Origin: an uncultured Methylococcaceae bacterium | GTDB lineage: Bacteria; Pseudomonadota; Gammaproteobacteria; Methylococcales; Methylococcaceae | Assembly: GCA_903930145.1 (NCBI GenBank) | Contig: CAIYXP010000300.1 | Location: forward strand, 768 to 64,767 | Length of the DNA: 64,000 bases | Reading direction: 5' to 3' | Shown here: piece by piece, positions 11,343 through 28,831 of the stretch | How the letters are laid out: every line of letters begins with the position of its first letter | Position numbering within the stretch: the stretch's first letter is position 1 | Program-made: the position numbers and the translations under genes | The notes under the pieces: generated by a model | The model's database searches: none | What the model was told of the DNA's origin: nothing | Seen by the model: only the letters and a program-made list of their open reading frames with translations

Positions 11343-11372
11343 ATTTATTATTGAATTGATAGGAACATTCGT

Positions 11373-12044
11373 ATGCTTGTCGAACTGAACAACGTCAAGA
11401 AAGAGTACTCTCTCGGGAAAGCCAAAGTACAGGCTTTAAGGGGTATTACCTTGAATATAAACCGTGGGGACTTCATTACCATTGCCGGCCCCTCGGGCAG
11501 TGGCAAAACTACCTTGCTCAATCTCGTAGGTTGTTTAGATACTCCGACCGAAGGGACGGTGTTTTTTGACGGGGTTGACATATCCACACTTGATTTGACG
11601 CAACGTGCGTATCTTCGTAATGAAAAGATTGGGTTCATTTTTCAATCGTTCAACCTGATACCGGTCTTGAACGTGTACGAAAACGTCGAACTCCCTGTGC
11701 GAGTAGGCCGGAGGAAAGCCAGCGGTCGAGAGTTGAAGGATTGGATTATGCATCTGATCGAGGCCGTTGGCCTGGCTGATCGGATCAAACACAAACCGGA
11801 GGAGCTATCCGGCGGGCAAAGGCAGAGGGTGGCTGTTGCTCGCGCCTTGGTCAATAAACCGCACCTTGTCCTAGCAGACGAGCCGACTGGCAATTTGGAT
11901 TCCGAGACGGCGGTGAAAATCCTAGATATTATGCGAAAACTAAACCAGGAGGCCAAGACCACCTTCCTGTTTTCAACCCATGACCAAGAAATCATACAAC
12001 GCTGCGACAGCGTCGTTAGGATCAAGGACGGACATCTGGTCTGA
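11373..12044 (+). CDS. ABC transporter ATP-binding protein (LolD-like)
   Basis: Walker A GPSGSGKTT, Q-loop, signature LSGGQRQRVAVARAL, Walker B LVLADEPTGNLD, H-loop STHD. Confidence 0.95.
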   Translation: MLVELNNVKKEYSLGKAKVQALRGITLNINRGDFITIAGPSGSGKTTLLNLVGCLDTPTEGTVFFDGVDISTLDLTQRAYLRNEKIGFIFQSFNLIPVLNVYENVELPVRVGRRKASGRELKDWIMHLIEAVGLADRIKHKPEELSGGQRQRVAVARALVNKPHLVLADEPTGNLDSETAVKILDIMRKLNQEAKTTFLFSTHDQEIIQRCDSVVRIKDGHLV

Positions 12045-12087
12045 GCGGCTTTAGCCTAGTTAATCAATCGACATCCCATAAACTGGA

Positions 12088-13805: not shown

Positions 13806-14886
13806 CAATAATGCAAATTTTGATGAAGTAATCCATATTGAATCGGATGCCAAGCTTTTTACCAAAATCGTAAAATGTGTGATTTGGGATTTAGACAATA
13901 CGATTTGGGATGGAATCCTTGTGGAGGGGGACGATGTCCGCTTAAAGCCAGGAATACCGGAAATCCTATCGATTCTGGATTCGCGTGGCATCCTGCACTC
14001 GGTGGCAAGCAAGAACAACTACGACGATGCCATGTCAAAGTTGAAGACGTTCGGCATAGACCATTACTTCCTGTTTCCTCAAATCGGCTGGGATGCCAAA
14101 TCCTTTGGCATTGCGAAAATTCAGAAGGATCTGAATATCGGCATGGATAGCTTGCTGTTCATTGACGACCAGATGTTTGAAGTTGATGAGGTAGCGACAG
14201 CCCATCCTGCAATTAATTGGATAGTGGCTGAAAAATACCAAGGATTACCATCCGACCCAAGGCTTAACCCGAAAGTGGTGGCGGAGGATGCGCACCTACG
14301 ACGGCTTCGTTATCTCGAAGCCATGGTTCGGCAACGGGATGAGGAGGAATTTAACGGAACACCAGAAGAGTTCCTCGTTAGCTTGGACATGAAATTTAGA
14401 ATTGCCACAGCAACCCATGCCGACCTTTTACGCGCAGAGGAACTCACAGTGCGCACGAATCAGCTCAATTCCACCGGGATCACTTATAGTTTCTCGGAAT
14501 TGGCGGCTTACATCAGATCGGAAAGCCACCAGCTTTTGATATGCGAACTGACCGACAAATATGGTTCCTATGGAAAGATTGGGTTGGTTTTGGTGGAAAG
14601 GCAAGCGCGCTGTGACAGGATCAAGCTCCTGTTGATGTCGTGTCGCACGGTGTCCAGAGGGCTTGGGGGGGTGCTCCTCACCTACCTGATGCAGCAGGCG
14701 GCACGGGATGGCAAAGAACTCCTTGCGGATTTCCGGCGAACCGAGCGTAACCGCCAGATGCTCGTCACTTACCAGTTTGGTAATTTCCGGGAGGTTGAAA
14801 GGACTCCCGAAGGACTGATTGTCTTTGCGAACAACCTTGACATTATCCCGGACTACCCCCCCTATATTCAGGTTTTCCTGGACTGA
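13789..14886 (+). CDS. FkbH-like HAD-superfamily (IIIC) glyceryl-ACP-forming enzyme
   Basis: HAD motif I in the FkbH context: VKCVIWDLDNTIWDG. Downstream FIDD motif. The size of about 365 aa is typical. The ATG at 13789 overlaps the upstream gene by 17 nt. Confidence 0.85.
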   Translation: MNTALNNNANFDEVIHIESDAKLFTKIVKCVIWDLDNTIWDGILVEGDDVRLKPGIPEILSILDSRGILHSVASKNNYDDAMSKLKTFGIDHYFLFPQIGWDAKSFGIAKIQKDLNIGMDSLLFIDDQMFEVDEVATAHPAINWIVAEKYQGLPSDPRLNPKVVAEDAHLRRLRYLEAMVRQRDEEEFNGTPEEFLVSLDMKFRIATATHADLLRAEELTVRTNQLNSTGITYSFSELAAYIRSESHQLLICELTDKYGSYGKIGLVLVERQARCDRIKLLLMSCRTVSRGLGGVLLTYLMQQAARDGKELLADFRRTERNRQMLVTYQFGNFREVERTPEGLIVFANNLDIIPDYPPYIQVFLD

Positions 14887-14936: not shown

Positions 14937-15218
14937 GTGATGACTATGCCGGAACAAGAAGAGCAGCTTTGGCGTACCCAGCTTCGCGAATTTATCGAAG
15001 CCAATATGAACACAGTCGATGACGATGTGGTGCTACGCGACGACGATAATATTTTCGCCAATCGCTATGTGGATTCGATTTTCTCCATGCGCTTGCTCAA
15101 CTTTGTTGAAGCTATAAGCGGCATCATCGTAGCTGATGAGGATATCGTGCTAGCGAATTTCAGCTCGATTGACGCGATGCTTGCATTGATCAGCAGGCAT
15201 CGCGGGGCAGGCCAGTGA
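14937..15218 (+). CDS. Discrete acyl carrier protein (FkbJ/ZmaD-like)
   Basis: A small acidic protein of about 90 aa with a carrier-protein Ser motif (YVDSIFSMRLL), placed between the FkbH-like and acyl-CoA-dehydrogenase-like genes. The start is uncertain (GTG 14937, ATG 14940 or ATG 14946). Confidence 0.75.
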   Translation: MMTMPEQEEQLWRTQLREFIEANMNTVDDDVVLRDDDNIFANRYVDSIFSMRLLNFVEAISGIIVADEDIVLANFSSIDAMLALISRHRGAGQ

Positions 15219-16381
15219 TGACGACTCAGACTATCCACCCTTTGGTTGCATCCGCCAGGGCATTTGCGGAAGAAACCTTGCGTCCACGTGCTGGCGAATT
15301 TGATCAGCAAGAATGCGTTCCTCGTGATGTTCTTCATGAACTGGCGGAGCGCGGCCTGCTCGGTGCAATATTGCCGCGGGAATTTGGTGGCGGCGGCTTG
15401 GATCCGCTTTCCTATGGCCTACTCACAGCCGAGATCGGCAAGGGGTGCAGTTCGACGAGAGCTCTTCTGACGGTGCATGCCAGCTTGGTGGGGGAAACCT
15501 TGGCGAGGATGGGATCGTCGGACCAAAAGCGGCGATGGCTTCCAGACATGGCTGCGGGGAGGAGGCTGGCTTGTTTTGCGCTTTCGGAGCCAGACATCGG
15601 TTCAGAGGCGACCGCAGTCAAGACTAGCTACCGGGCGCAGGGCGGCGAGTTCGTGATCAACGGACAGAAGAAATGGATCACCTACGGTGCGATTGCCGAT
15701 TTGTTTTTGGTGTTCGCTGCCAGCGAGGGCGAGATCAGCGCCTTCATTGTGGATCGCACGATGGAGGGATTGTCGACCAAGCCTATGTCCGGTTTGCTGG
15801 CTAGTCGTGGCGCCCACCTTGCCGAAGTGAAGTTCGATAATGTGGTGGTTCCGAAGGAGAACCTGATTGGTCGGCTAGGCACCGGCTTCACATTCGTTGG
15901 TAACACGGCTCTGTTCTATGGACGTTACAGTGTTGCTTGGGCAGGAGTTGCTATAGCCGAGGCGGCAGTCGAGGAGATGGTGGAATATGCGAGAAACCGG
16001 CAGCAGTTCGGCAAAAAACTGCGGCAGCACCAAATGGTGCAATCGCTCATCGCAGGGGCCGTGGCCAAGCTCCATGCAGGGCGAGCGTTATGCGAGAAGG
16101 TTGGGCAGTTACGTAACCAAGGGGACGACGCAGCCGTGATGGAGGCTAACATCGCTAAATATGTAACATCGAAACTGGCTATGGAGGTGACCTTGACTGC
16201 CGTCCAGGTCTTTGGCGGAAACGGCTGCTGGAATGCCTACCCAGTCGAGCGTCTTTTCAGGGAGGCAAAGATATTAGAGATCATTGAGGGTTCCTCGCAA
16301 ATCCAAGAAATGCTCATTTCCGAACATGCGATTCGCCATTACAGGCGGAGGCAGCATCGTCCGTCGTTCGCCAATGTTTAA
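15218..16381 (+). CDS. Acyl-CoA dehydrogenase family protein (FkbI/ZmaE/Asm15-like)
   Basis: Full-length ACAD fold motifs (CFALSEPDIGSEA, GQKKWITYG, QFGKKL..HQMVQ, QVFGGNG, EIIEGSSQIQ). TGATG stop/start overlap with the ACP gene at 15216-15220. Confidence 0.9.
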   Translation: MTTQTIHPLVASARAFAEETLRPRAGEFDQQECVPRDVLHELAERGLLGAILPREFGGGGLDPLSYGLLTAEIGKGCSSTRALLTVHASLVGETLARMGSSDQKRRWLPDMAAGRRLACFALSEPDIGSEATAVKTSYRAQGGEFVINGQKKWITYGAIADLFLVFAASEGEISAFIVDRTMEGLSTKPMSGLLASRGAHLAEVKFDNVVVPKENLIGRLGTGFTFVGNTALFYGRYSVAWAGVAIAEAAVEEMVEYARNRQQFGKKLRQHQMVQSLIAGAVAKLHAGRALCEKVGQLRNQGDDAAVMEANIAKYVTSKLAMEVTLTAVQVFGGNGCWNAYPVERLFREAKILEIIEGSSQIQEMLISEHAIRHYRRRQHRPSFANV

Positions 16382-16398: not shown

Positions 16399-19300
16399 AT
16401 GCTTATGAACATGTACCAGACTTTGCTTGAATGCTTGAATGCGAGTGCACAGGGCGGGAAGGGTATCCGCTTCATCACGGGTGTGGGGCAAGAAGAGTTC
16501 CTCGCCTACCGGCAGCTTAGAGACGACGCTTTAGGTCGGCTCGCGGGGTTGCGCAAACTCGGAATTCAAGTGGGTGACGAATTGGTTTTCCAATATGCCA
16601 GCCTGAGGGAGTTCATGATCACCTACTGGGCATGTATCGCGGGTGCAATCATACCGGTTCCCTTGGAATTCGCCAGCCAAGCCACCAATGCGGAAAAGGT
16701 TTTCACGGTATGGAAAACCCTCAACAACGCCTGGCTGGCTTCGGATTCCGCCAACCTTGCCGATAGGTTAGAAGCTTTTGCGGCGCAGACTGAGTGGGCG
16801 GAGCAATGGGCGCAGATGCGTGGTCGCCTTGTCTTTCCAACCGATGTGGCCGGTGCTTCGGGAGATTGCCGACCAGCCGATGCAACCCCTTCTGACATCG
16901 CTTTCATCCAGTTTTCGTCTGGTTCCACCAGCGCCCCCAAAGGTGTCGTACTCACCCATGCGAACTTACTGGCAAATATCGACGATATACTTGCCGCAGT
17001 GGACTATACCGAAGCTGACACCTTCCTAAGCTGGAAACCCATCACCCACGATTTTGGCATGATCGCGTTCCACTTGGCGCCCATCGTCGCCGGGAGTGAT
17101 CAAATTCGCATTGCCACCGAAGTGTTCATCTGGAACCCCTCCTTGTGGTTTGCGGCGGCAGACAAGTATCGTGCGTCAATTCTGGGATCGCCGAATTTTG
17201 GCTATCGCCACTTCCTGAAACTTTATCGGAAAGGCAAGAAGAAGCCCTCTTGGGATCTTTCCTGTATCAAAGTCATCCTAAACGGTGCCGAACCAATTTC
17301 CGCCGAACTTTGCGAAGAATTTAGGCGGGAATTGGCCTGTTTTGGGTTGCCACCGCATTGCATCACACCGGGCTACGGGTTGGCGGAAGGTTCGCTGATT
17401 GCCTCGTTATGCCCAATAGACGAGGGTATCCGCACCATGACCGTTGACCGGCATCACCTCCGTGTGGGTGATCGGCTACAGCCAGTGGAGCCGGGATCGC
17501 CTCAGTCCATCACTTTTGTAGACTGTGGCCTGCCCTTCCCGAAGACTGATATCCGTATCACCGGCAAAGGCCGCTTGCCTTTGCCGGAAGATCAAGTCGG
17601 ACACATCGAAATCCGCGGCGATGCGGTTACCTCGGGTTATTACCGCGATCCGCAATCGACGGCAGCCCTGATTGGACCGGGCGGGTGGTTGGATACCCAA
17701 GACCTCGGAGTGCTTAGAGAAGGGCGTTTGTTCGTAGTCGGACGGGTCAAAGAGATGCTCATCATCGGCGGCATCAATTATTTCCCCCATGATATAGAAC
17801 AAGCGATACTGCGGGCTAGGGGCGAGGATCATCTTAACAAATACATTGTTTGCGGTGTCTACAACTCTGAGCAGGGAAGGGAGGAGCCGGTGATCTTTGT
17901 ATACGCCAAGCACACCGGGGAGGGTTTTGCTGCCCTTGCCGCCGAACTGCGGCAGGTAGTCATGGCGACGTTTGCCCTGCCCGTGGTCAATGTCGTCCCG
18001 GTCAAGAAAATCCCCAAGACGACGAGCGGTAAAGTGCAACGGTTCAAGCTAGTCCAAGATTACTTGGACGGTAAGTTCGACGAGGCACTGAATGATGTCG
18101 GGGAAGTCCGCGCCATTCGCATGGCCATAGCCAATATAGAGCTACCTGTAAGCTACACAGATGCTCCGGCGCAAACTGAAGACGGTATCATAGTCCGCAC
18201 CCGTCGTATCGCCGCCCGGCTTTTAGGTCACCCCGACATTGATCAGGATAGCGGTTTTTTCGACCTTGGCTTCTCTTCGCTTTCGCTGATGGTTTTGCGG
18301 GAAAGGCTAGAGGAGGAATTCGGCGTTTCTTTAGAGAGCACCAGTCCGCTTGATTTTCCTAATGTTCGCAGCCTAGCGGCCCACATTGCCCTTCATTTGG
18401 CGGTCGGCGCGCACCCTGCTCCTGTGCGGACATCCTTGCAGGAATCTCTTTTGCCTGAGGCGACCCACCATGAGCCCGTCGCAATCATCGGCATGGGTTG
18501 CCGCTTTCCTGGCGGTGCCGATTCCCCTGAGTCTTTCTGGAATTTGCTCAATTCTGGGATTGATCCAATCGGCGAAATGCCGCCGGACCGCTGGCAATCC
18601 GATCCCCAGGCGCACGCGGATTTGACCACGCGGCAAGGCGGTTTTTTGGATGCCGTGGATCGCTTTGATCCGTTGTTCTTTGGTATTTCTCCGACCGAGG
18701 CCGAAGCGATGGATCCGCAGCAACGTTTGCTGCTGGAAGTCTGCCACGAAACCATTGAGAACGCTGGCCTTAATTCATCGGAACTGGCAGGTTCGAGAAC
18801 CGGCGTGTTCATCGGGATGTCTGGCAGCGAATATGCCGCTGTCGGCAAGGATATGGGGCATTTCACTGGCCCCTACAGCTTCACTGGCACTATGTTTAAC
18901 ACCGCCTGCGGCCGAATTTCCTACACCTTCGGTTTCCAAGGCCCTTGTGTCGCAATAGACACCGCCTGTTCCTCGTCCTTGGTGGCGGTAAATCAAGGGC
19001 TGCACGAATTGCGGTCGAATACGTGCGACCTTGTGGTGGCGGGTGGCGTCAACCTGATTTTAAGAGCGGATGGTCATGTGAGTTTTTCTCAACTAAATGC
19101 CTTATCTTCGACCGGTCGTTGCCGCAGTTTCGACGAGTCCGCCGATGGCTACATTCGCAGCGAGGGTTGTGGCCTTGTTCTGCTCAAACGCCTGAGTGAT
19201 GCGAAGAGGGACGAGGATACCATCCTTGCCGTCATCAGGGGCGGGGCGGTCAACCATAATGGAAAGTCGGGGGGGTTGACAGTCCCAAACGGCTCAGCAC

Positions 19301-22300
19301 AAGAAGCCTTGATTCTCCAAGCTTTGGCGGACGCCGATATTGGGCCTGCTGAGGTGGACTATGTGGAAGCGCATGGTTCTGGAACAAGGCTGGGCGATCC
19401 GCAGGAACTCAACGCGCTTGCGCGGGTTTTCTCAGCCCGCAATGCGCCTTTGCGCGTGGGCAGTGTAAAGTCCAACCTAGGCCATCTTGAAAGTGCTGCG
19501 GGTATCGCAGGCCTCATCAAGCTGGTGCTTTGCCTGCGCCACCAGGCGTTTGCGCCAAACCTACACTTCCGACACCCAAACAGTCTGATTGATTGGGAAA
19601 AAGCCCTTCTCCTCCCGGTTACCGCCCCGCTGGCTTGGGCTGCCGAAGGCAAAACGCGAACGGCAGGCATAAGCTCCTTCGGTATCAGCGGTACCAATGC
19701 GCATCTTCTGCTACAGGAATACCCATGCCCCGTCAAACAGGCAGAGGCAGGTCGAGCTCAGGGTTCTTTTGTTTTCACCCTAAGCGCCAAATCCCCAGAG
19801 GGTCTGCGACTCTCAGCCTTGAAGTTTGCCAATTATCCGAAGTTGGAGACATTGCGTTTTGCTGATTTGTGCCGGACAGTAAACCGTTTGCGTGTTTCGC
19901 ACTCAAACCGCTGGGCCTGTAGCGCAGCCAACGCGGAAGATCTGCGGCAAAAATTGCTCCGGTTTGCAAACCATGCCGATCGGGTTGAAACTGACGGCGA
20001 CATGTGCCCCAGTCGCAAAATTGTGTTTCTCTATACCGGGCAGGGTTCTTACTATCCAGGCATGGGCGAGGCGCTTTATCGGGACAGCCCTGTGTTCAAA
20101 GATGCCTTTGATCAGTGCGATGCTCTGTTCGCCCCCTTGATTGGCTGTTCGTTGCGAGATTATGTTTATGCGCAACTCCGTCGAAGCTCTGATTCTGCTC
20201 AGGCCACCCAGTCGGCCATTTTCGCTGTCGGTTACGCTTTGAGCAGATTTTGGGAAGCGCTCGGCATCCGCCCCAGCGCAGTCATCGGCCACAGCATCGG
20301 CGAATACGCCGCTGCCTGTGAGTCGGGCATAATGAGTCTTGAAAATGCCGTGCAGATGGTTGCCTTGCGCGGAGCGATCATGGAGCAAACCCCGGCTGAC
20401 GGCGCAATGACGGGAATCCTTTCTGACGAAGCCATCGTCCGCAAGCTGTGCGAGGATTGCGGTGGCGGTGTCTATCTCGCAGCCATCAATGGGGATGAAA
20501 ACATCACTGTGTCCGGGCAAAAAGAAAGCGTGGCACGGTTGGTCGCAAGTGCCAAGAAAGCGCGTATCTTCACGGAAGCCTTGCCCATGTCTCACGCCTT
20601 CCATTCGCCGCTGATGGGAGCGAGCGCGGGTAAATTGAAGGATGGCTTGGCGGGAATTCGGTTTAGCGACCCCAAAATTCCTTTGATTTCCACTCAGAGC
20701 GGGCGGGTCTTGTCCTCAGCGGATGAGGCTGGGGCCGACTATTGGAGCGCCCACCTGTGCAACACAGTCCGCTTCAAGGACGCGATGCTGCTCGCATTGG
20801 GCACGGATGCAGCGACCTTTTTGGAAATTGGTGGCACGGCTACACTCAGTGGGTTGGGTGCCCAGATCGGGCGAGGGGATCAGCTTGCGTTTTTGCCTTC
20901 ACTCCGTGAGGGTAGGGATGCTTGGGAGCAGGTGAGCCAGAGCCTTGCCGTGCTATTCCGGCGTGGCTATTCGATCAACTGGGATGCCTACCACAATGGA
21001 GTGTCCTCGTTTATCACAGACTTGCCGAACACTGCCTATCAACGCAACCGCTTCTGGTTCTCGGACAATAGCCCTGCTAGACGGTCTCCCGCACCCGTAC
21101 CTCTAACCTTGGCCTACTCCACAGCATCAGAGGCGGCGGTGTTGTCCGGCGAAGCCACGGCGGCTTCGCCGATGACCTCGGAATCATCGGACTTGCAAGC
21201 CGTCCAACGTGACATCAAAGATATAGTAAGCCGCGTGACGGGCGTCCCGCCGTCGGAGATCGCCGACCAAGCCCATCTTTTCTCCCTCGGCATCGATTCT
21301 CTCATGCTCATGCAGATGGACAAGCAGGTGGTTGCCAAGTATGGCGTCGACATCCCACTCAAGCGATTTTTCACCGATTTGCATACACCTGAGAAGATCG
21401 CCTTGTTCGTCGCAGCGGAAATGCCGGCGGGATTGCGCGCCACCCCATCCACCCCAGCCTTGCTGTCTGCGCCATCGCCCCAGCCTCAGTTGGCTGTGCC
21501 GGGGCAAGCCATAAGCCAACTTGAACATATCGTCCAGACCCAGCTTGAGCTGATGCGGGAACAGATCGCGCTGCTAAACGGTCAGACGACTGCTCACACG
21601 GCCAGCTTGGAGACGAGTAAGGTGGCGGCAAAGCCTGCCGAGGTGGCGCGCCCAAAGACCAACCTTCGCGACATCACGCTGCACGAGGAGGATGTCACTC
21701 CCAGGCAGAGGGTGTTCATAAACCGTCTCATCCAGCGCGTCAACCAATCAACACCTAAATCGAAAAACTACGCCCAGACCTATCGTCGAGGCTTCGCCGA
21801 CTGGATTGCCAGTTTGAATTTCAGTTTGACCACGAAGGAACTGGTCTATCCCGTCGTCTCTGCCCGTTCCAAAGGCTCCCGCTTCTGGGATATTGACGGT
21901 AACGAATACATTGATACCGCCATCGGTTACGGGGTTTCTTTTTTTGGTAACAACCCAGACTTCATCGCCGAAGCGATCCAGGCTCAGCTTGGCCAAGGCA
22001 TCGAACTCGGCCCACAATCAGATTTGGTTGGCGAAGTCGCAGAGCGTATCCGCCGCCTGACTGGGGTGGAGCGGGTGGCCTTTTGCAACACAGGAACCGA
22101 GGCGGTCATGGTAGCCATCCGGCTGGCCCGTGCTGTCACCCGTCGCCTTAAGATCGTGCGTTTCATTACGTCTTTCCACGGTAGTTTCGATGGGGTGCTG
22201 GCGGAAGCAGGCGATGGCGGAACCGTACCAATGGCTCCCGGCATTCCACAGTCTATGGTCGAGGACACCGTCGTCCTGCATTACGGCAGTCCAGAATCCT

Positions 22301-25300
22301 TGGCGACCATCCGTGAGATGGGGGCGGAATTGGCCGCGGTATTGGTGGAGCCGGTACAAAGTCGCAATCCTGGACTGCAACCGCGCGAGTACTTGCAAGA
22401 ATTGCGCAAGATCACAGCGGATGCCGGCATCGCCCTGATTTTCGACGAGATGATCACAGGGTTTAGAATCCATACGGGGGGTGCGCAGGCATATTTCGAT
22501 GTGCGCGCCGACCTTGTGACCTACGGCAAAATCGTTGGGGGCGGCATGCCTGTCGGGGTTGTCGGCGGGAGTGCCCGCTACATGGATGCCATCGACGGGG
22601 GGGTGTGGAATTTCGGCGACACGTCAGGACCTTCGGCGGAAACCACTTTCTTTGCCGGCACGTTCTGCAAACATCCTCTGACCATGGCGGCTTCGCGGGC
22701 CGTGCTGGAAAAACTGGAGACGGAGGGGGCGTTGCTAATTGAGCGGACGAACGATCTGACCCGCCGCTTTACCGAGCGGGCCAATGTTTTTTTCGAGGAA
22801 TCACAGGCGCCTGTCCAAGTAAAGCGTTTTGGTTCGATGTATCGCTTCGAAGCACGTGTTTCACAAGATATCCCTCGTCTATCTCTTGAAATGAACCTGT
22901 TCTTCCGCCTGATGATGCTTGAAGGAGTCTATGTGTGGGAACGACGCACCTGCTTTTTCTCGACGGCCCACACGGAGGCGGACGCTGGTCGCATCCTCGG
23001 TGCGGTCAAAGCTGCCACTGATGAATTGCGCCGGGGCGGTTTCAGTTTCCGTGCTGTCAGTGAGCCGGACGGTGGCGGTTCAAAGATCCGGGGGGGCGAA
23101 TCAGGTTTGACAAGCTCCGGCCCGCGTTTCCTACAGCTTTCCTCCGAGGAACGGCGGATTTACATCTTGAGCCTGATGAAGGGAGGGGAGGCCGCCTACC
23201 ACGTGACGGGTGCTCTCCTGATTAAAGGCCTGTTGGAGCCAGATCGAGTAAGGGATGTCTTCCGCGTACTGACTCGACGCCATGAAGCCATGCGCACACT
23301 CTATAGGGTACAAGATGGTGAGATTCGCCGCCAAGTCGAAAGTGAGGTCGATATCGTCATGGAATGCAGGGATTCGACGGATGGAATAGAGTCCTCGCTG
23401 ATGGGTCAAATGGTACGGCCGTTCGATCCGTCCAAGGCACCCCTGTGGCGGATTGGGCTGATTAGGCGCGGCCTGAACGAAAACGTGTTGGTGCTTGATT
23501 TCCATCACCTGATTGCCGACGGGCGATCCATGTCCATTTTGATTCAAGACTTCATCGCCTTGTGGCAAGGCGAGACTGGCTTACGCGGGATGGAACCCCG
23601 GCCTTATGCAGATTTTGCCGAATGGGAATGTGGATTCGTCGGTAGTGGCGATTACTTGCGCCAGAAAGCCTATTGGCTCAAGGCTTTTGAAGTGCTCCCA
23701 CCGCCTTTGGGCCTTCCGACTGACTCCCCCCGCCCGCCGCAGAACGATTTTGCTGGCGCTTCCCTGAATGCCCCCTTTAAGCAGTCTGTCTTCCCGAAGG
23801 TTCGTGAAATCGCCCGGCAGTTGCAAGTCACCCCGTTCATGGTCTTGCTATCGGCCTATTTCGCCTTACTCCACAAGCTGACCGGTCAAGATGACCTGTG
23901 CGTGGGCATCCCATTCGACCGCCGGGTCAACCGGGATTTCGACCAGACCGTGGGCATGTTCTCGCAAACCCTGATGATCCGTGTTTTGGCAGGCGGCGAC
24001 CTGTCGTTCGGTCATCTTCTTGCGCAGGTGAGGGAGGCGTGCGCCTTAGCCTTTGCCCACCCCGATGTGCCTTTGGATGAATTACTGGAAGAATTGTCCG
24101 TACCCCGGGATTTCAGCCGGAACCCATTGTTCGATACCTTGTTCATTTTCGAAAATGGCAATGACCGGGTGACCAGCACCTCGGATTTGAGCGTCGAGAC
24201 ACTCCCTGTGCCAATTCGAGGCGCGGCCTTTGATTTGACCATCGAAATCACTGAGGAACGGGGTTTGCTGTCTGGTGTTTTGATTTATGCCACCCGCTTG
24301 TTTAGCGAAACCACCATCAAGCGCTGGGCCGGCTATTACGAAGCGCTGTTGGAGCGCGCCATGGACAATCCAGAAATTCGGATCAAGGATTTGGACATGT
24401 TAGTCCAAGGCGAGCGCAACCTGCTATTGTCGGGCTTCAATGATACTGCCAGAGCTTACCCGCCTCAGGAGACCGTTGTAACCCTGTTCAGACGGGCGGC
24501 AGCGTGCCATGCCGACAGGCTTGCAGTTCGGTGCGGGACGAAAAATTGTCTGACATATGCCGAGCTAGACGCAGCTTCCGACGATTTGGCAAAGCGGCTT
24601 GTCAGCCTTGGCATCGGAGCGGGTTCCTTGGTGGGCATCTTATTGCGGCGTGGGCCGGCGATGCCGGTGGCCATGCTCGGAGTGCTCAAAGCTGGAGCGG
24701 CGTATGTGCCCCTAGACCCCGATTACCCTCCGGCCCGCCTACGCTACATGCTGGAGCGTTGTGAAGCCAAGGTAGTGTTGAGCAAGGCAGGGTTCGCCGA
24801 GGAGTTGGGCTTTACAGGCATCGTGCTTGACCCTGACGGAGATACTCCCTCGCCACCAGCGGCTTTGCCCAAGGTTATATCGTCCGACGGATTGGCTTAT
24901 GTGATCTTTACCTCCGGGTCCACGGGCAAACCCAAGGGGGTCATGATTGAGCACCAGGCCGTCGTGAATTTTCTGCACGGCATGAAAGAGGCACTTGATG
25001 TGCCTGATAACATCAGCACACTGGGGCTTACCACCATTTCCTTTGACATCTTTGTTCTTGAAGTTTTCTTGACCTTCGTTCAAGGTGGTACCCTAGTGTT
25101 GGCGACGGAGGCAGAGCAAAACGATCCCAAGGAATTGGTACGGTTGATTAAATCGATGCAAGGCGGGTTAGTGCAGATAACTCCCAGTCGTTTACAAATG
25201 CTACTGTCGGCCTATTCGGCTCAAGAGGCTCTGGCGGGGTTGGGCCTGCTCTTGGTTGGCGGCGAAGCGTTTCCGTCGCACCATCTGGCTGACCTCAAGG

Positions 25301-26814
25301 CTGTGCCGGGTCTGCGCATCTTCAATATGTACGGGCCGACGGAGACGACCGTGTGGTCTTCAGTCAAGGATCTGACCCATGCGGATGCTGTGACCATTGG
25401 TAAACCCATTGCTAACACCCAGGTGTATGTGCTTGGTTCAGATTCGGAAGTGCTGCCTGTGGGTAGCGTTGGCGATTTGTACATTGCCGGCGCTGGGTTG
25501 GCGAGGGGCTATTTGGGTGATGAGGCGCAGACGGCGACGGCTTTCGTGCTCAATGCCTATGCGCTGGGTCAGCGCATGTACCGGACCGGTGATAGGGCGG
25601 CTTGGACTATAAACGGCGAATTGATCTACCAAGGGCGGTGTGATCAACAAATCAAACTGCGCGGTCATCGTATCGAATTGGCGGAAATTGAAAAGATATT
25701 GTTGGAGCATCCATCCGTCCGCAATGCGGCCGTTGCCATACGCGAACTTAGTCCCAGTAACGCCGTGTTGGTGGCCTATTGCCAAGCCACGGATACGCCA
25801 AAGCCGGGGTTCGGAGAGGAACTTCGCGCCCATGGAGCCAGGCATCTGCCCGATTACATGGTGCCGGCAATCATTGTTCCCGTTGAATACCTGCCGATGA
25901 CCCCCAATGGAAAAATCGACCGCAATAATCTGCCGACAACCTTGGCTGAAGTTTCTAGGGAAACCCTGCTAGAGGCTGTTAATACCGAAGGGCTGGCTGG
26001 GGAAATATTGAAGGTTTGGAAGGCCATCCTCGGTGGCGACCGCCCCATCGGCTTTAGAGATAGTTTTTTCGACCTCGGTGGCAATTCCTTGAGCTTGGTG
26101 TTGATGCACAGCGCAATTGCGGAAAAATATCCCGGCACATTGGAGGTGGCGGATATTTTCGCAAACCCCACCATTGCCGCCTTGCAGAACTTTATACAGA
26201 GACAGATTGGCGAAGAATTGAAGCCCGTCGCCTTCCCGGAAGAGTTCACCCGGGTGGTGGGGCTTGACGGGGGGGTAGAGGGTTCGCTCCAAGCCGAAAT
26301 CAGTGGTCAATGGTATGACAAGCTAACTGCGGCGGCCGGCGATGTGAATGCCGAACCCCGCGAGATCGCCTTGGCGCTATATCTATTCTATCTGAACAAG
26401 CTGTTGAATGCCCATCAACTAAGCCTCGCCCTTGCGGATGGGCATCGGGAAGCCAACGCAGTATTAGACATTGACATGCACAATTTGCGCACCGTGGCTG
26501 ATATCTTGCGGACACTGCGAGATCGTCGTCGTCTTGCCGTCGTTAGCCTAGGGAGAAGCCATGCAGCCAGAACGGGGCTGAGTCTTCTATTTGTCTTTGC
26601 CGAGGGCATTGGAAAGATTCAGCGGCAGGGTTTTGACATTGTATTTCACGTTGCTTCTAGTGCGGACAAATTGCACATTGGTGTGGAATATGACGCTAGC
26701 CGCCTTGAAGGTGAACGCATGAAGAGTTTCATTGCCAATTACATCAAATTGTTAAAGGCCGTAGTAGGAGCGGGTCGGCGTGAGCAAATTCCCGCTGTGG
26801 AGACTGAGTCTTAA
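16399..26814 (+). CDS. Hybrid PKS/NRPS initiation megasynthase: FAAL-ACP-KS-AT-ACP-aminotransferase-C-A(Gly-like)-PCP plus a degenerate C-lobe tail
   Basis: Motifs, with coordinates read from the DNA:
- FAAL: FSSGSTSAPKG, about 16912-16950.
- ACP1: Ser about 18277.
- KS: Cys 18967-18969 (DTACSSS), HGSGT, NLGH.
- AT: Ser 20293-20295 (GHSIGE), HAFH 20593-20604.
- ACP2: Ser 21298-21300.
- Class-III PLP aminotransferase: about 21700-23050, Lys 22528-22530.
- C: HHLIADG, 23503-23523.
- A: SGSTGKPKG about 24915; NGKIDR about 25905.
- PCP: Ser 26086-26088.
- C-lobe tail: 26215-26811. Confidence 0.95.
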   Translation: MLMNMYQTLLECLNASAQGGKGIRFITGVGQEEFLAYRQLRDDALGRLAGLRKLGIQVGDELVFQYASLREFMITYWACIAGAIIPVPLEFASQATNAEKVFTVWKTLNNAWLASDSANLADRLEAFAAQTEWAEQWAQMRGRLVFPTDVAGASGDCRPADATPSDIAFIQFSSGSTSAPKGVVLTHANLLANIDDILAAVDYTEADTFLSWKPITHDFGMIAFHLAPIVAGSDQIRIATEVFIWNPSLWFAAADKYRASILGSPNFGYRHFLKLYRKGKKKPSWDLSCIKVILNGAEPISAELCEEFRRELACFGLPPHCITPGYGLAEGSLIASLCPIDEGIRTMTVDRHHLRVGDRLQPVEPGSPQSITFVDCGLPFPKTDIRITGKGRLPLPEDQVGHIEIRGDAVTSGYYRDPQSTAALIGPGGWLDTQDLGVLREGRLFVVGRVKEMLIIGGINYFPHDIEQAILRARGEDHLNKYIVCGVYNSEQGREEPVIFVYAKHTGEGFAALAAELRQVVMATFALPVVNVVPVKKIPKTTSGKVQRFKLVQDYLDGKFDEALNDVGEVRAIRMAIANIELPVSYTDAPAQTEDGIIVRTRRIAARLLGHPDIDQDSGFFDLGFSSLSLMVLRERLEEEFGVSLESTSPLDFPNVRSLAAHIALHLAVGAHPAPVRTSLQESLLPEATHHEPVAIIGMGCRFPGGADSPESFWNLLNSGIDPIGEMPPDRWQSDPQAHADLTTRQGGFLDAVDRFDPLFFGISPTEAEAMDPQQRLLLEVCHETIENAGLNSSELAGSRTGVFIGMSGSEYAAVGKDMGHFTGPYSFTGTMFNTACGRISYTFGFQGPCVAIDTACSSSLVAVNQGLHELRSNTCDLVVAGGVNLILRADGHVSFSQLNALSSTGRCRSFDESADGYIRSEGCGLVLLKRLSDAKRDEDTILAVIRGGAVNHNGKSGGLTVPNGSAQEALILQALADADIGPAEVDYVEAHGSGTRLGDPQELNALARVFSARNAPLRVGSVKSNLGHLESAAGIAGLIKLVLCLRHQAFAPNLHFRHPNSLIDWEKALLLPVTAPLAWAAEGKTRTAGISSFGISGTNAHLLLQEYPCPVKQAEAGRAQGSFVFTLSAKSPEGLRLSALKFANYPKLETLRFADLCRTVNRLRVSHSNRWACSAANAEDLRQKLLRFANHADRVETDGDMCPSRKIVFLYTGQGSYYPGMGEALYRDSPVFKDAFDQCDALFAPLIGCSLRDYVYAQLRRSSDSAQATQSAIFAVGYALSRFWEALGIRPSAVIGHSIGEYAAACESGIMSLENAVQMVALRGAIMEQTPADGAMTGILSDEAIVRKLCEDCGGGVYLAAINGDENITVSGQKESVARLVASAKKARIFTEALPMSHAFHSPLMGASAGKLKDGLAGIRFSDPKIPLISTQSGRVLSSADEAGADYWSAHLCNTVRFKDAMLLALGTDAATFLEIGGTATLSGLGAQIGRGDQLAFLPSLREGRDAWEQVSQSLAVLFRRGYSINWDAYHNGVSSFITDLPNTAYQRNRFWFSDNSPARRSPAPVPLTLAYSTASEAAVLSGEATAASPMTSESSDLQAVQRDIKDIVSRVTGVPPSEIADQAHLFSLGIDSLMLMQMDKQVVAKYGVDIPLKRFFTDLHTPEKIALFVAAEMPAGLRATPSTPALLSAPSPQPQLAVPGQAISQLEHIVQTQLELMREQIALLNGQTTAHTASLETSKVAAKPAEVARPKTNLRDITLHEEDVTPRQRVFINRLIQRVNQSTPKSKNYAQTYRRGFADWIASLNFSLTTKELVYPVVSARSKGSRFWDIDGNEYIDTAIGYGVSFFGNNPDFIAEAIQAQLGQGIELGPQSDLVGEVAERIRRLTGVERVAFCNTGTEAVMVAIRLARAVTRRLKIVRFITSFHGSFDGVLAEAGDGGTVPMAPGIPQSMVEDTVVLHYGSPESLATIREMGAELAAVLVEPVQSRNPGLQPREYLQELRKITADAGIALIFDEMITGFRIHTGGAQAYFDVRADLVTYGKIVGGGMPVGVVGGSARYMDAIDGGVWNFGDTSGPSAETTFFAGTFCKHPLTMAASRAVLEKLETEGALLIERTNDLTRRFTERANVFFEESQAPVQVKRFGSMYRFEARVSQDIPRLSLEMNLFFRLMMLEGVYVWERRTCFFSTAHTEADAGRILGAVKAATDELRRGGFSFRAVSEPDGGGSKIRGGESGLTSSGPRFLQLSSEERRIYILSLMKGGEAAYHVTGALLIKGLLEPDRVRDVFRVLTRRHEAMRTLYRVQDGEIRRQVESEVDIVMECRDSTDGIESSLMGQMVRPFDPSKAPLWRIGLIRRGLNENVLVLDFHHLIADGRSMSILIQDFIALWQGETGLRGMEPRPYADFAEWECGFVGSGDYLRQKAYWLKAFEVLPPPLGLPTDSPRPPQNDFAGASLNAPFKQSVFPKVREIARQLQVTPFMVLLSAYFALLHKLTGQDDLCVGIPFDRRVNRDFDQTVGMFSQTLMIRVLAGGDLSFGHLLAQVREACALAFAHPDVPLDELLEELSVPRDFSRNPLFDTLFIFENGNDRVTSTSDLSVETLPVPIRGAAFDLTIEITEERGLLSGVLIYATRLFSETTIKRWAGYYEALLERAMDNPEIRIKDLDMLVQGERNLLLSGFNDTARAYPPQETVVTLFRRAAACHADRLAVRCGTKNCLTYAELDAASDDLAKRLVSLGIGAGSLVGILLRRGPAMPVAMLGVLKAGAAYVPLDPDYPPARLRYMLERCEAKVVLSKAGFAEELGFTGIVLDPDGDTPSPPAALPKVISSDGLAYVIFTSGSTGKPKGVMIEHQAVVNFLHGMKEALDVPDNISTLGLTTISFDIFVLEVFLTFVQGGTLVLATEAEQNDPKELVRLIKSMQGGLVQITPSRLQMLLSAYSAQEALAGLGLLLVGGEAFPSHHLADLKAVPGLRIFNMYGPTETTVWSSVKDLTHADAVTIGKPIANTQVYVLGSDSEVLPVGSVGDLYIAGAGLARGYLGDEAQTATAFVLNAYALGQRMYRTGDRAAWTINGELIYQGRCDQQIKLRGHRIELAEIEKILLEHPSVRNAAVAIRELSPSNAVLVAYCQATDTPKPGFGEELRAHGARHLPDYMVPAIIVPVEYLPMTPNGKIDRNNLPTTLAEVSRETLLEAVNTEGLAGEILKVWKAILGGDRPIGFRDSFFDLGGNSLSLVLMHSAIAEKYPGTLEVADIFANPTIAALQNFIQRQIGEELKPVAFPEEFTRVVGLDGGVEGSLQAEISGQWYDKLTAAAGDVNAEPREIALALYLFYLNKLLNAHQLSLALADGHREANAVLDIDMHNLRTVADILRTLRDRRRLAVVSLGRSHAARTGLSLLFVFAEGIGKIQRQGFDIVFHVASSADKLHIGVEYDASRLEGERMKSFIANYIKLLKAVVGAGRREQIPAVETES

Positions 26815-27474: not shown

Positions 27475-27547
27475 TGAGTAGGCCGATTTGCGATGATTGC
27501 AGCAGACGGTCATTTTGTTCAACTTGATACAAGGGGTAAATGATCTG

Positions 27548-28816: not shown

Positions 28817-28831
28817 TAGAGGAGTTTGGGC

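What the first reader, a model, noticed from the sequence alone, without database searches (positions are those of the whole stretch)
16399..23100. Iturin/mycosubtilin-type beta-amino fatty acid initiation, here with an integrated AT
The N-terminal 2200 aa read FAAL-ACP-KS-AT-ACP followed by a class-III PLP aminotransferase domain (Lys codon 22528-22530) and then a C domain. This is the logic known from MycA/ItuA: fatty acid activation, one malonyl extension, transamination of the beta-keto group, and hand-over to the NRPS. That logic is otherwise associated mainly with Bacillus iturins and some cyanobacterial lipopeptides. Here it sits in a diderm context (TolC, LolA-like genes). It also carries its own HAFH-type AT even though a FenF-like discrete AT is encoded as well.
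Basis: partly seen in the sequence, partly recalled or inferred. Interest (0 to 1): 0.7.

Follow-up and report, generated by a model that had tools for sequence, protein, structure and literature searches.

The report
Mycosubtilin-type beta-amino acyl starter module
The gene really does encode a mycosubtilin-like module that activates an acid, extends it by two carbons and converts the keto group to an amine. This design, with its built-in acyltransferase, is common in Gram-negative bacteria, so the only unusual point is a conserved neighbouring gene set for a hydroxylated building block.

Summary
ORF 16399-26814 (3471 aa) reads FAAL-ACP-KS-AT-ACP-AMT-C-A-PCP. The PLP lysine is K2044, at nt 22528-22530 as stated. 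The best solved-structure match of the AMT is the MycA aminotransferase domain (E 2e-143, 56% identity).

The novelty claims do not hold. AMT relatives occur in at least 584 species genomes across many phyla. Characterised diderm examples exist (cystomanamide, ralsolamycin). The integrated AT is the usual form; the AT-less Bacillus type is the exception. The discrete AT is explained by three AT-less trans-AT-type KS modules downstream.

A four-gene hydroxymalonyl-ACP cassette (FkbK/FkbH/ACP/FkbI-like, 12954-16381) abuts the gene. It is conserved in the orphan cis/trans-AT PKS-NRPS cluster family to which the window belongs (Proteobacteria, Firmicutes, Actinobacteria). In that family the AMT is optional. 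AT1 has a clade-specific F-x-E in place of the basic carrier-recognition motif.

Whether module 1 uses malonyl-CoA or hydroxymalonyl-ACP is unresolved. Hydroxymalonyl would give a 3-amino-2-hydroxy acid without an oxygenase domain. The acid substrate is also untyped: the nearest structures are StsA (a keto-acid activator) and McyG. Verdict: new member of a known kind, modest interest.

The parts
12954..13805 (+). FkbK/ZmaG-like 3-hydroxyacyl-CoA dehydrogenase (hydroxymalonyl-ACP cassette)
   Evidence: Pfam 3HCDH_N and 3HCDH, E 3e-50 and 1e-32. Conserved next to the megasynthase in relatives. In Saccharophagus it has moved to the 3' end of the cluster.
13774..14886 (+). FkbH-like glyceryl-ACP-forming enzyme (HAD-IIIC plus FkbH domain)
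   Evidence: NCBIfam TIGR01686 FkbH domain, 233 bits against a cut-off of 146.65. DxDxT motif IWDLDNT is visible in the translation. 54-61% identical copies sit at the same position in the relatives.
14937..15218 (+). Free-standing acyl carrier protein of the cassette
   Evidence: 93-aa ORF with a DSI serine motif. HMM support is weak only (AmcB ACP, E 2e-4). The homologue in L088 has a weak PF00550 hit. The position is conserved, at 48-65% identity.
15215..16381 (+). FkbI/ZmaE-like acyl-CoA (acyl-ACP) dehydrogenase
   Evidence: Pfam Acyl-CoA_dh_N, _M and _1. Its stop is 18 nt before the megasynthase start. Conserved in the relatives.
16399..18078 (+). FAAL-type acyl-AMP ligase loading domain (aa 1-560)
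   Evidence: Best NCBIfam model is PRK09192 fatty acyl-AMP ligase, 323 bits, below its cut-off of 600. PDB matches: StsA 288 bits, McyG 253, Legionella and E. coli FAALs about 210. The spacing from GYGLAE to GLP is 51 aa, against 23 aa in the NRPS A domain of the same protein, which is a FAAL-type insertion.
18202..18387 (+). ACP1 (aa 602-663)
   Evidence: Pfam PP-binding. Serine in GFSSLS at aa 624-629.
18472..19569 (+). Elongating ketosynthase (aa 692-1057)
   Evidence: Pfam ketoacyl-synt and Ketoacyl-synt_C. DTACSSS, EAHGSGT and KSNLGH are all present.
20023..20943 (+). Integrated acyltransferase AT1 (aa 1209-1515): GHSIGE, (I)F-T-E ALPMS HAFH
   Evidence: Pfam Acyl_transf_1, E 1e-54. Best PDB match is CurL at 217 bits; ZmaA-AT scores 128 bits. 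This segment is absent from the Bacillus cereus MycA-like protein P0113.
21184..21393 (+). ACP2 (about aa 1596-1665)
   Evidence: Pfam carrier-domain hit at 1596-1649. Serine in GIDSLM at aa 1631-1636.
21751..23046 (+). MycA-type class-III PLP aminotransferase domain (aa 1785-2216). PLP Lys K2044 is at nt 22528-22530
   Evidence: PDB 6KFM, 6KFR and 6KFU (MycA AMT), E 2e-143, 481 bits, aligned over the full length. 56% identity to MycA, and the Lys is invariant in 82 of 82 sequences. The whole segment aa about 1729-2246 is missing from the otherwise colinear orthologues P0034, P0036 and P0057.
23134..26193 (+). NRPS module C-A-PCP (aa 2246-3265) that accepts the beta-amino acyl chain. The A domain is probably glycine-specific
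   Evidence: Pfam Condensation, AMP-binding, AMP-binding_C and PP-binding. HHLIADG and GGNSLS are present. The hand-derived specificity residues D-I-L-Q-L-G-M-V-W-K resemble the glycine code. This rests plus my own memory of the residue positions, so it is an inference.
27497..28816 (+). Discrete FabD-like acyltransferase serving the AT-less modules
   Evidence: TIGR00128 FabD, 303 bits against a cut-off of 260.9. Best PDB matches are bacterial FabD and DisD. It lies directly downstream of the megasynthase in all family members.
28826..45287 (+). Three AT-less (trans-AT-type) PKS modules: KS-DH-KR-ACP, KS-DH-KR-ACP, and KS-ACP fused to C-A-PCP-C
   Evidence: Pfam. All three KS domains keep Cys/His/His. 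Synteny is conserved in relatives.
45308..55740 (+). C-A-PCP, then the terminal KS-AT-MT-ACP-C module
   Evidence: Pfam. AT5 has the canonical G-T-R RLQTS HAFH. Orthologues occur in Saccharophagus, Massilia, Paenibacillus and Tumebacillus.
8756..12846 (+). FtsX-FtsX-ABC-LolA-like export genes that travel with this cluster family
   Evidence: Pfam. The same four genes lie upstream of the cassette in L086 and L087 and at the 3' end in Saccharophagus.
55772..57928 (+). Predicted outer-membrane beta-barrel protein (442 aa), followed by a type II thioesterase
   Evidence: The 442-aa protein has a signal peptide and a C-terminal Phe. It is 32% identical to the 432-aa protein next to the LolA-like gene in Saccharophagus. 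It has no Pfam or PDB hit. The second gene has a Thioesterase Pfam hit.

Best explanation
ORF 16399-26814 is the initiation megasynthase of an uncharacterised hybrid cis/trans-AT PKS-NRPS cluster from a metagenome-assembled diderm bacterium, probably a gammaproteobacterium.

Proposed mechanism:
1. The FAAL-type domain adenylates a carboxylic acid and loads it on ACP1 without a CoA intermediate. The acid is presumed to be a fatty acid, but its chain length and type are not determined.
2. The KS condenses it with a C2 extender that the integrated AT1 has placed on ACP2.
3. The MycA-type PLP aminotransferase domain converts the beta-keto group to a beta-amine.
4. The C domain joins the 3-aminoacyl chain to the amino acid loaded by the A-PCP, probably glycine.
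5. The chain passes to three AT-less KS modules served by the discrete FabD-like AT, then to two NRPS modules and a terminal KS-AT-MT-ACP-C module.

The extender used by AT1 is most simply malonyl-CoA, because AT1 has GHSIGE and HAFH and is most like CurL. The conserved hydroxymalonyl-ACP cassette next door means hydroxymalonyl cannot be excluded.

Shown here: domain order, catalytic residues, homology to MycA, conservation of the cluster. Inferred: every chemical step, the substrate and the product.
For: -
- The AMT matches the MycA AMT structures at E 2e-143 over the full length, with 56% identity. The PLP Lys and the FDEMITGF Asp motif are conserved.
- The N-terminal domain's best NCBIfam models are FAAL and FadD families. 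It has a 28-aa FAAL-type insertion relative to the NRPS A domain in the same protein, and no Asp235-type FDxS motif.
- The KS has Cys/His/His, both ACPs have their serines, and the C domain has HHxxxDG.
- Cystobacter fuscus P0053 is colinear at 40% identity over aa 8-3284. Whether P0053 is the cystomanamide ctmA product was not checked.
- Bacillus-type MycA homologues lack only the AT segment.
- AT1 is closest to the malonyl-specific CurL, and ZmaA-AT is a much weaker match. In an AT tree, AT1 nests among malonyl-type cis-ATs.
- The discrete AT passes the FabD equivalog cut-off, and three KS modules lack an AT.
- The whole gene order is conserved in Chromatiales, Aliikangiella, Saccharophagus, Paenibacillus, Streptomyces and Actinokineospora; the Lysobacterales MAG locus (L004) runs out after the discrete AT.
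Against: - No product is known for any member of this cluster family. All chemistry is therefore by homology.
- The best solved-structure matches of the loading domain are StsA, which activates alpha-ketoisocaproate, and McyG, which activates phenylpropanoids. Long-chain FAALs score lower. The FAAL NCBIfam score is also below that model's curated cut-off.
- AT1 lacks the basic residues 8 and 6 positions before HAFH that CoA-using ATs normally have. It reads F-T-E instead.
- A complete hydroxymalonyl-ACP cassette sits 18 nt upstream. The malonyl assignment may therefore be wrong.
- The AMT is dispensable in close orthologues. The amine is thus not essential to the scaffold.
Confidence: 0.75

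Rival explanations
1. The architecture is the same, but AT1 takes hydroxymalonyl from the free ACP made by the FkbK/FkbH/ACP/FkbI cassette. The KS then makes a 2-hydroxy-3-oxoacyl-ACP, and the AMT turns it into a 3-amino-2-hydroxy acyl starter. The alpha-hydroxyl would come from the extender unit. In puwainaphycin and ralsolamycin synthetases it comes from a monooxygenase domain instead.
For: - The cassette abuts the gene and is conserved at that spot in every AMT-bearing family member examined. In Saccharophagus FkbK has moved to the 3' end of the cluster.
- In the AMT tree, the window falls in a clade made only of cassette-bearing loci.
- AT1 is the only one of the three ATs with a non-canonical carrier-recognition triplet. 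It is F-x-E in all family members, whereas AT5 is canonical and the discrete AT is FabD-like. Park et al. link loss of the basic RXR motif to ACP-tethered extenders (PMC4207774).
- In two unrelated AMT clades (L060 Thiotrichaceae, L062 Rhodospirillaceae), an Fkb cassette is nested between KS-AT(GYSxG) and ACP-AMT-C-A genes. Those ATs have QAFH or AAFH, so Phe at that position does not exclude the substrate.
- The ORF has no oxygenase domain, unlike PuwE and RmyA.
Against: - AT1 keeps GHSIG and HAFH rather than the GYSxG and GAAH of ZmaA-AT.
- It is most similar to malonyl-specific CurL and nests in malonyl-type cis-ATs, not with the GYS group.
- The same AT1 type occurs without a cassette nearby. 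In Tumebacillus none was found within 10 kb upstream or at the 3' end. In a Solibacillus NRPS cluster none was found within the 10-kb flanks fetched.
- AMT-less orthologues keep the cassette. The cassette is therefore not tied to the AMT.
- The F-x-E signature is a single clade-level change, so the correlation counts as one evolutionary event.
Confidence: 0.33
2. The loading domain is an acyl-AMP ligase for a small or unusual acid (alpha-keto, aryl or short branched) rather than a long-chain fatty acid. The module would then build a beta-amino acid residue, not a lipid tail.
For: - The top PDB matches are StsA (alpha-ketoisocaproate, 288 bits) and McyG (253 bits), ahead of bona fide FAALs at 184-214 bits.
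- The FAAL NCBIfam hit is below its cut-off.
- Streptomyces family members replace FAAL-ACP with a loading AT whose carboxylate-binding Arg is replaced by Trp. That AT would load a monoacyl thioester of unknown size.
Against: - The best family-level models are all fatty-acid ligases.
- There is no KR after the loading domain, unlike the A-KR-T module of StsA.
- The cluster carries LolA-like, FtsX/ABC and outer-membrane barrel export genes, which would fit a lipidic product. This last point is an inference.
- Cystobacter fuscus P0053 is colinear. Whether it is the cystomanamide (3-amino-9-methyldecanoate) synthetase CtmA was not checked.
Confidence: 0.2
3. The hydroxymalonyl unit is used elsewhere in the assembly line, and module 1 uses plain malonyl-CoA. 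Candidate sites are one of the AT-less modules via the discrete AT, or the terminal KS-AT-MT module, where the MT domain could O-methylate it.
For: - AT1 has malonyl-type motifs and relatives.
- No standalone O-methyltransferase accompanies the cassette, but the last module has an embedded MT.
- The discrete AT has GPFH, like the aminomalonyl-specific ZmaF, and a variable residue at the position of FabD Arg190.
- The cassette is retained in AMT-less orthologues.
Against: - The discrete AT passes the FabD equivalog cut-off and is closest to FabD structures.
- AT5 has the canonical malonyl-CoA signature throughout the family.
- No second discrete AT was found in the window or in the relatives' flanks.
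Confidence: 0.4

Closest known systems
MycA / ItuA / BamA initiation module of the iturin family (Bacillus)
   Same: The order is FAAL-ACP-KS-ACP-AMT-C-A-PCP. The AMT is 56% identical to the crystallised MycA AMT, with the PLP lysine conserved. The proposed chemistry is the same: acyl activation, one C2 extension, beta-transamination, hand-over to an NRPS.
   Different: The Bacillus-type proteins have no AT. Window aa 1187-1509 have no counterpart in P0113, and from my own knowledge of the literature FenF acts on them in trans. In iturins the downstream line is purely NRPS and ends in a TE. Here it is trans-AT PKS plus NRPS, ending in KS-AT-MT-ACP-C. The first amino acid is probably Gly here. 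An Fkb cassette is present here.
Cystobacter fuscus P0053, possibly the cystomanamide synthetase CtmA, and other proteobacterial, Bacteroidota and actinobacterial FAAL-ACP-KS-AT-ACP-AMT-C-A-PCP proteins
   Same: The architecture is identical, including the integrated AT. P0053 is colinear at 40% identity over aa 8-3284. Cystomanamides carry 3-amino-9-methyldecanoic acid (PMC9581180). This shows that the integrated-AT form in diderms is already known.
   Different: P0053 and most others have a basic R-x-R type triplet before HAFH, whereas the window family has F-x-E. The cystomanamide line continues as NRPS, and its FkbH is an in-line domain that delivers glycerate. It is not a hydroxymalonyl cassette. 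Whether P0053 is CtmA itself was not verified.
PuwE (puwainaphycin) and RmyA (ralsolamycin): makers of 3-amino-2-hydroxy fatty acids
   Same: A PKS module is followed by a class-III aminotransferase domain and an NRPS module. An FAAL provides the starter.
   Different: Those enzymes carry a luciferase-like or flavin monooxygenase domain next to the AMT for the 2-hydroxyl. The window ORF has none. If it makes a 2-hydroxyl at all, it would have to come from hydroxymalonyl-ACP.
Zwittermicin ZmaN/ZmaD/ZmaG/ZmaE with ZmaA-AT, and FK520 FkbH-K: the hydroxy/methoxymalonyl-ACP pathway
   Same: The enzyme set is the same: FkbH-like, ACP, 3-hydroxyacyl-CoA dehydrogenase-like and acyl-CoA dehydrogenase-like.
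   Different: The window has no AT with the ZmaA-type GYSxG/GAAH signature and no FkbG-type O-methyltransferase gene. The acceptor module is unknown.

Membership tests
MycA-type beta-aminoacyl initiation module | N-terminal acyl-AMP ligase (FAAL-type, with the FAAL insertion) rather than an amino-acid A domain | tested here: met
   The best NCBIfam models are FAAL and FadD families. The PDB matches include E. coli and Legionella FAALs, FadD32 and McyG. GLAE-to-GLP spacing is 51 aa against 23 aa in the NRPS A domain. Caveats: the score is below the PRK09192 cut-off, and the top PDB hit is the keto-acid activator StsA.
MycA-type beta-aminoacyl initiation module | Carrier domain, elongating KS and a second carrier domain between the ligase and the aminotransferase | tested here: met
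   Pfam order. Serines in GFSSLS and GIDSLM, and KS Cys/His/His.
MycA-type beta-aminoacyl initiation module | In-line class-III PLP aminotransferase domain homologous to the MycA AMT, with the catalytic lysine | tested here: met
   6KFM, E 2e-143, 481 bits, against about 205 bits for GSA aminomutases. K2044 is aligned and is invariant in 82 of 82 sequences.
MycA-type beta-aminoacyl initiation module | C-A-PCP module directly after the AMT | tested here: met
   Pfam. HHLIADG and GGNSLS are present.
MycA-type beta-aminoacyl initiation module | Produces a 3-amino fatty acyl thioester | not testable with these tools
   This needs enzyme assays or the natural product. No product is reported for the cluster family.
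Iturin (Bacillus) sub-type | No integrated AT; malonyl loaded in trans by FenF | tested here: not met
   An integrated AT is present at aa 1209-1515. Bacillus cereus P0113 lacks exactly this segment.
Hydroxymalonyl-ACP extender pathway (FkbH/ZmaN type) | FkbH-like enzyme, dedicated ACP, 3-hydroxyacyl-CoA-DH-like and acyl-CoA-DH-like genes together | tested here: met
   TIGR01686 is above its cut-off. 3HCDH and Acyl-CoA_dh Pfam hits are present, along with a 93-aa ACP-like ORF. The ACP has only weak HMM support.
Hydroxymalonyl-ACP extender pathway (FkbH/ZmaN type) | A partner AT with the signature of ACP-tethered extender use (GYSxG; hydrophobic residues in place of RXR; small residue in the YASH motif) | tested here: inconclusive
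   AT1 is GHSIG, F-T-E, HAFH. AT5 is GHSLG, G-T-R, HAFH. The discrete AT is GHSLG, N-I-I, GPFH. The criteria are from PMC4207774. Only the loss of basic residues in AT1 fits.
Hydroxymalonyl-ACP extender pathway (FkbH/ZmaN type) | FkbG-type O-methyltransferase (for methoxymalonyl) | tested here: not met
   There is no standalone methyltransferase among the window ORFs. The only MT is the domain inside the last PKS.
trans-AT PKS | KS modules without an AT, plus a discrete FabD-like AT in the cluster | tested here: met
   The three KS-bearing ORFs in 28826-45287 have no Acyl_transf_1 hit. The discrete AT is at 27497-28816. The cluster is a cis/trans hybrid because modules 1 and 7 have their own ATs.

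The most novel reading that the evidence does not exclude
This widespread orphan cluster family makes a 3-amino-2-hydroxy acyl starter by a route not yet described. AT1, which has lost the CoA-type basic motif (F-x-E), would load hydroxymalonyl from the cassette ACP, and the in-line MycA-type aminotransferase would aminate the resulting 2-hydroxy-3-oxoacyl-ACP. This would replace the aminotransferase-plus-monooxygenase solution of puwainaphycin and ralsolamycin synthetases. The Fkb cassettes nested inside AMT modules in L060 and L062 would be independent instances of the same logic.
Probability: 0.3. Interest if true: 0.6.

Novelty: new member of a known kind. Interest (0 to 1): 0.3.

Why it matters
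MycA-type beta-amino acyl initiation with a built-in AT is abundant in Gram-negative and other bacteria, and it already has characterised examples.

Two things add some value. First, the window belongs to a conserved, product-less hybrid cis/trans-AT PKS-NRPS cluster family found in cultured strains (Saccharophagus degradans, Paenibacillus hamazuiensis, Aliikangiella maris, Massilia, Streptomyces, Tumebacillus). In this family the aminotransferase domain is present or cleanly absent between close orthologues, which makes it a natural experiment for domain insertion in megasynthases.

Second, the conserved hydroxymalonyl-ACP cassette next to an AMT module suggests a possible oxygenase-free route to alpha-hydroxy-beta-amino acids, a pharmacophore of protease inhibitors. 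This can be tested directly in those cultured strains.

Tried and rejected
1. Organism identification. The window protein is 100% identical to a metagenome contig (ENA ERZ18659389) but is not in the GTDB representative set. The listing of cluster members gave no names.

2. Coupling of AMT and Fkb cassette as evidence that they act on the same unit. Rejected, because the AMT-less orthologues P0034 and P0036 keep the cassette.

3. F-x-E in AT1 as a marker of cassette use. Weakened, because Tumebacillus (no cassette within 10 kb upstream or at the 3' end) and a Solibacillus NRPS cluster (no cassette within the 10-kb flanks fetched) carry the same AT type.

4. Similarity of AT1 or the discrete AT to the hydroxymalonyl-specific ZmaA-AT structure. 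Both are closer to malonyl-specific enzymes.

5. The 442-aa and 200-aa proteins without Pfam hits as candidate hydroxymalonyl transferases. The 442-aa protein looks like an outer-membrane barrel of the exporter. The 200-aa ORF is not conserved in relatives.

6. Contexts of short F-x-E AT proteins. P0110 and P0104 lie on contigs too short to decide.

7. Literature searches for a characterised product or for hydroxymalonyl plus AMT plus FAAL logic found nothing.

8. A domain scan of one L062 interval failed on stop codons and was repeated without it.

Full report
**Observation.** The window has a single 3471-aa ORF at 16399-26814 on the + strand. Pfam places the following, in order:
- an AMP-binding domain, about aa 1-560
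- PP-binding, 602-663
- KS, 692-1057
- Acyl_transf_1, 1209-1515
- a second carrier domain, about 1596-1649
- Aminotran_3, 1817-2157
- Condensation, 2246-2676
- AMP-binding plus AMP-binding_C, 2697-3172
- a third PP-binding domain

All E-values lie between 1e-15 and 1e-128. The catalytic motifs are intact: SSGSTSAPKG and PKTTSGKVQR in the ligase, GFSSLS, DTACSSS/EAHGSGT/KSNLGH, GHSIGE and HAFH, GIDSLM, FDEMITGF and YGKIVGGG, HHLIADG, and GGNSLS.

**Typing of the two diagnostic domains.**

*Aminotransferase.* Its best match among solved structures is the aminotransferase domain of mycosubtilin synthase subunit A (6KFM, 6KFR, 6KFU). The E-value is 2e-143 at 481 bits, aligned end to end. The next class, glutamate-1-semialdehyde aminomutases, scores about 205 bits. 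Identity to MycA is 56%, and the PLP lysine column is K in all 82 aligned AMT domains. The refutation test 'fails to align to class-III aminotransferases or lacks the lysine' is therefore not triggered.

*N-terminal adenylating domain.* Its best NCBIfam models are fatty acyl-AMP ligase and FadD families (PRK09192, 323 bits, below that model's cut-off of 600). It has a stretch of about 28 extra residues between the GYGLAE and GLP motifs, compared with the NRPS A domain of the same protein. This is the position of the FAAL insertion. It is not an amino-acid A domain.

Its closest solved relatives, however, are StsA and McyG. StsA scores 288 bits and is the alpha-ketoisocaproate-activating initiation domain of a cereulide-like synthetase (PMC11253843). 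McyG scores 253 bits. Both come ahead of the Legionella and E. coli FAALs (about 210 bits) and FadD32. The substrate 'fatty acid' is therefore plausible, not shown.

**The novelty claims.** They include Lysobacterales, Chromatiales, Kangiellaceae, Burkholderia, Pseudoalteromonas, Chitinophaga, Acidobacteriota, Chloroflexota, Actinomycetota, Bacillota and many cyanobacteria.

More than 2200 proteins match the N-terminal 2240 aa at E <= 1e-50. Among the listed hits with an aminotransferase domain, all but five (P0107, P0108, P0112, P0113, P0115; the named ones are Melghirimyces, Paenibacillus and Bacillus) also carry the AT Pfam domain. Pairwise alignment shows that Bacillus cereus P0113 lacks exactly window aa 1187-1509, which is the AT. 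Cystobacter fuscus P0053 is colinear over aa 8-3284.

Published diderm examples exist. Cystomanamides of Cystobacter fuscus carry 3-amino-9-methyldecanoic acid (PMC9581180). RmyA of Ralstonia is explicitly compared with MycA (PMC4989320). The integrated AT and the diderm setting are thus the rule rather than the exception.

The discrete AT at 27497-28816 passes the FabD equivalog cut-off and is closest to FabD and DisD structures. Its presence is explained by the three KS-containing ORFs at 28826-45287, which have no AT domain. The cluster is a cis/trans-AT hybrid.

Four genes lie directly upstream, the last ending 18 nt before the megasynthase start:
- a 3-hydroxyacyl-CoA-dehydrogenase-like gene, 12954-13805
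- an FkbH-domain gene, 13774-14886 (TIGR01686, 233 bits against a cut-off of 146.65)
- a 93-aa ACP-like ORF, 14937-15218
- an acyl-CoA-dehydrogenase-like gene, 15215-16381

From established knowledge of the FK520 and zwittermicin pathways, this is the enzyme set for hydroxymalonyl-ACP. There is no FkbG-type O-methyltransferase gene.

In the closest AMT relatives from GTDB genomes, the same cassette sits directly upstream and a discrete AT directly downstream. This holds for a Bacillota MAG, Lysobacterales and Chromatiales MAGs, Aliikangiella maris, two Streptomyces and an Actinokineospora. No other locus among the 80 shows this arrangement. The downstream KS-DH-KR modules are also syntenic. 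Saccharophagus degradans and Paenibacillus hamazuiensis show the same cluster. In Saccharophagus the FkbK-like gene and the exporter genes have moved to the 3' end.

In an NJ tree of AMT domains, the window lies in a clade composed only of cassette-bearing loci. Its sub-branches follow the phyla. The terminal KS-AT-MT-ACP-C protein has orthologues in the same organisms. The window therefore belongs to a conserved cluster family. I found no described product for it.

**Variation inside the family.**
- The orthologues P0034 and P0036 have the same exporter genes, cassette, discrete AT and trans-AT modules but lack the aminotransferase. They align to window aa 5-1728 and 2247-3469, so aa about 1729-2246 behaves as a clean optional insert.
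- Tumebacillus lacks both the AMT and, as far as 10 kb upstream and the 3' end show, the cassette.
- In one metagenomic member the gene is split just before the AMT.
- Streptomyces members replace FAAL-ACP with a loading AT in which the carboxylate-binding Arg is Trp, which implies a monoacyl starter.

**Which module uses hydroxymalonyl?** This could not be settled. The criteria of Park et al. for ATs that take ACP-tethered extenders are GYSxG, hydrophobic residues replacing the basic RXR triplet 8-6 residues before the YASH motif, and GAAH or GPFH (PMC4207774).

The three ATs read as follows:

| AT | Ser motif | Triplet before YASH motif | YASH-type motif | Source |
|---|---|---|---|---|
| AT1 | GHSIG | (I)F-T-E | HAFH | |
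| AT5 | GHSLG | (I)G-T-R | HAFH | |
| Discrete AT | GHSLG | (A)N-I-I | GPFH | |

AT5's pattern is canonical throughout the family. The discrete AT is FabD-like.

F-x-[E/D/Q] is found in essentially all of the nearest 50 or so homologues. More distant FAAL-AMT proteins almost always keep a basic residue there. This fits a change of donor carrier.

Against that, several points weaken the link:
- It is one clade-level change.
- AT1 nests among malonyl-type cis-ATs rather than with GYS-type ATs.
- AT1 is most similar to CurL.
- The same AT type occurs in the cassette-less Tumebacillus cluster, and in a Solibacillus NRPS cluster with no cassette in the 10-kb flanks fetched.

In favour of a functional link between Fkb cassettes and AMT modules in general, two loci from other AMT clades are informative. 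L060 (Thiotrichaceae) and L062 (Rhodospirillaceae) have the cassette nested between a KS-AT(GYSxG) gene and an ACP-AMT-C-A gene. Their ATs have QAFH or AAFH, so Phe in that motif does not exclude the substrate.

Known producers of 3-amino-2-hydroxy fatty acids, PuwE and RmyA, use an AMT plus a monooxygenase domain. The window ORF has no such domain.

My estimates are about 0.33 that AT1 uses hydroxymalonyl-ACP and about 0.4 that the unit enters elsewhere. The remainder is undetermined.

**Mechanism proposed.** The steps are: acyl adenylation and loading on ACP1, KS-catalysed C2 extension on ACP2, PLP-dependent amination of C-3, and condensation with the amino acid on the PCP. My hand reading of the specificity residues gives D-I-L-Q-L-G-M-V-W-K, which resembles a glycine code. 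This is an inference and from memory of the positions.

Then follow two KS-DH-KR extensions, a KS-ACP extension, two amino acids, and a final KS-AT-MT-ACP extension released by a terminal C-like domain. All KS domains keep Cys/His/His. The FtsX-FtsX-ABC-LolA-like genes (8756-12846) and the 442-aa signal-peptide protein ending in Phe (55772-57100) travel with the family in diderm members. They probably export a lipidic product, which is an inference.

**Verdict.** The finding is real and correctly read at the domain level. It is a further member of a well-populated, already characterised kind of initiation module. Its supposed peculiarities (diderm host, integrated AT, extra discrete AT) are ordinary. 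The open and mildly interesting points are the conserved hydroxymalonyl-ACP cassette with an atypical AT1, the optional AMT in an orphan cluster family, and the untyped acid substrate.

Noticed in passing
window 3-7589: The window starts inside another synthetase gene whose C-terminus carries two thioesterase stretches (tandem TE). It is followed by an MFS transporter, an ABC/MacB/HlyD set and a TolC-type OEP. That cluster's conserved exporter is the FtsX-FtsX-ABC-LolA-like set.
   Followed up: partly
window 7868-8332: A 154-aa ORF with a weak DUF6444 hit (E 6e-4, below cut-off) lies in the gap between the two clusters. It may be a mobile-element remnant marking the boundary.
   Followed up: no
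window 26872-27474: A 200-aa ORF with no family hit lies between the megasynthase and the discrete AT. It is absent at this position in all relatives, where the AT follows the megasynthase directly.
   Followed up: partly
window 58308-63983 (- strand): Two genes match the Hma anti-phage defence system. HmaC (AAA+ ATPase/DUF499) scores E 2e-77 and HmaB (DNA adenine methylase) scores E 4e-79. The system runs off the window end.
   Followed up: partly
window 55772-57100; L092 21310-22608: A conserved 432-442-aa protein with a signal peptide and a C-terminal Phe has no Pfam or PDB match. It lies next to the LolA-like/FtsX/ABC genes in Saccharophagus. It is likely an uncharacterised outer-membrane barrel dedicated to export of the cluster product.
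   Followed up: partly
L086, L087 (P0034, P0036); L085, L091 (Tumebacillus): Close orthologues of the megasynthase lack the roughly 518-aa linker-plus-AMT segment but are otherwise colinear. The aminotransferase is thus a cleanly optional domain within one cluster family.
   Followed up: yes
L060 1-14602; L062 1590-19042: In two unrelated MAG loci an Fkb-type cassette is inserted between a KS-AT gene, whose AT has the ZmaA-like GYSxG motif, and an ACP-AMT-C-A gene. This suggests hydroxymalonyl extension followed by beta-transamination.
   Followed up: partly
L008, L010 (Streptomyces) about 5500-6900: Streptomyces versions of the cluster replace FAAL-ACP with a loading AT-ACP. In L010 the AT reads GYSLG, has Trp in place of the carboxylate-binding Arg, and has VACH.
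   Followed up: partly
window 26209-26811 (ORF aa about 3271-3471) and 43915-46700: The megasynthase has a C-terminal extension of about 200 aa after its PCP, with no Pfam hit, conserved at 30-34% identity in proteobacterial relatives. The next NRPS-bearing ORF ends in a C domain, and the following ORF starts with another C domain.
   Followed up: no
window 16399-18078: The FAAL-type loading domain is more similar to the keto-acid-activating initiation domain of StsA (6ULW, 6ULX) than to canonical FAAL structures. This implies that StsA's domain belongs to the FAAL-like lineage.
   Followed up: partly
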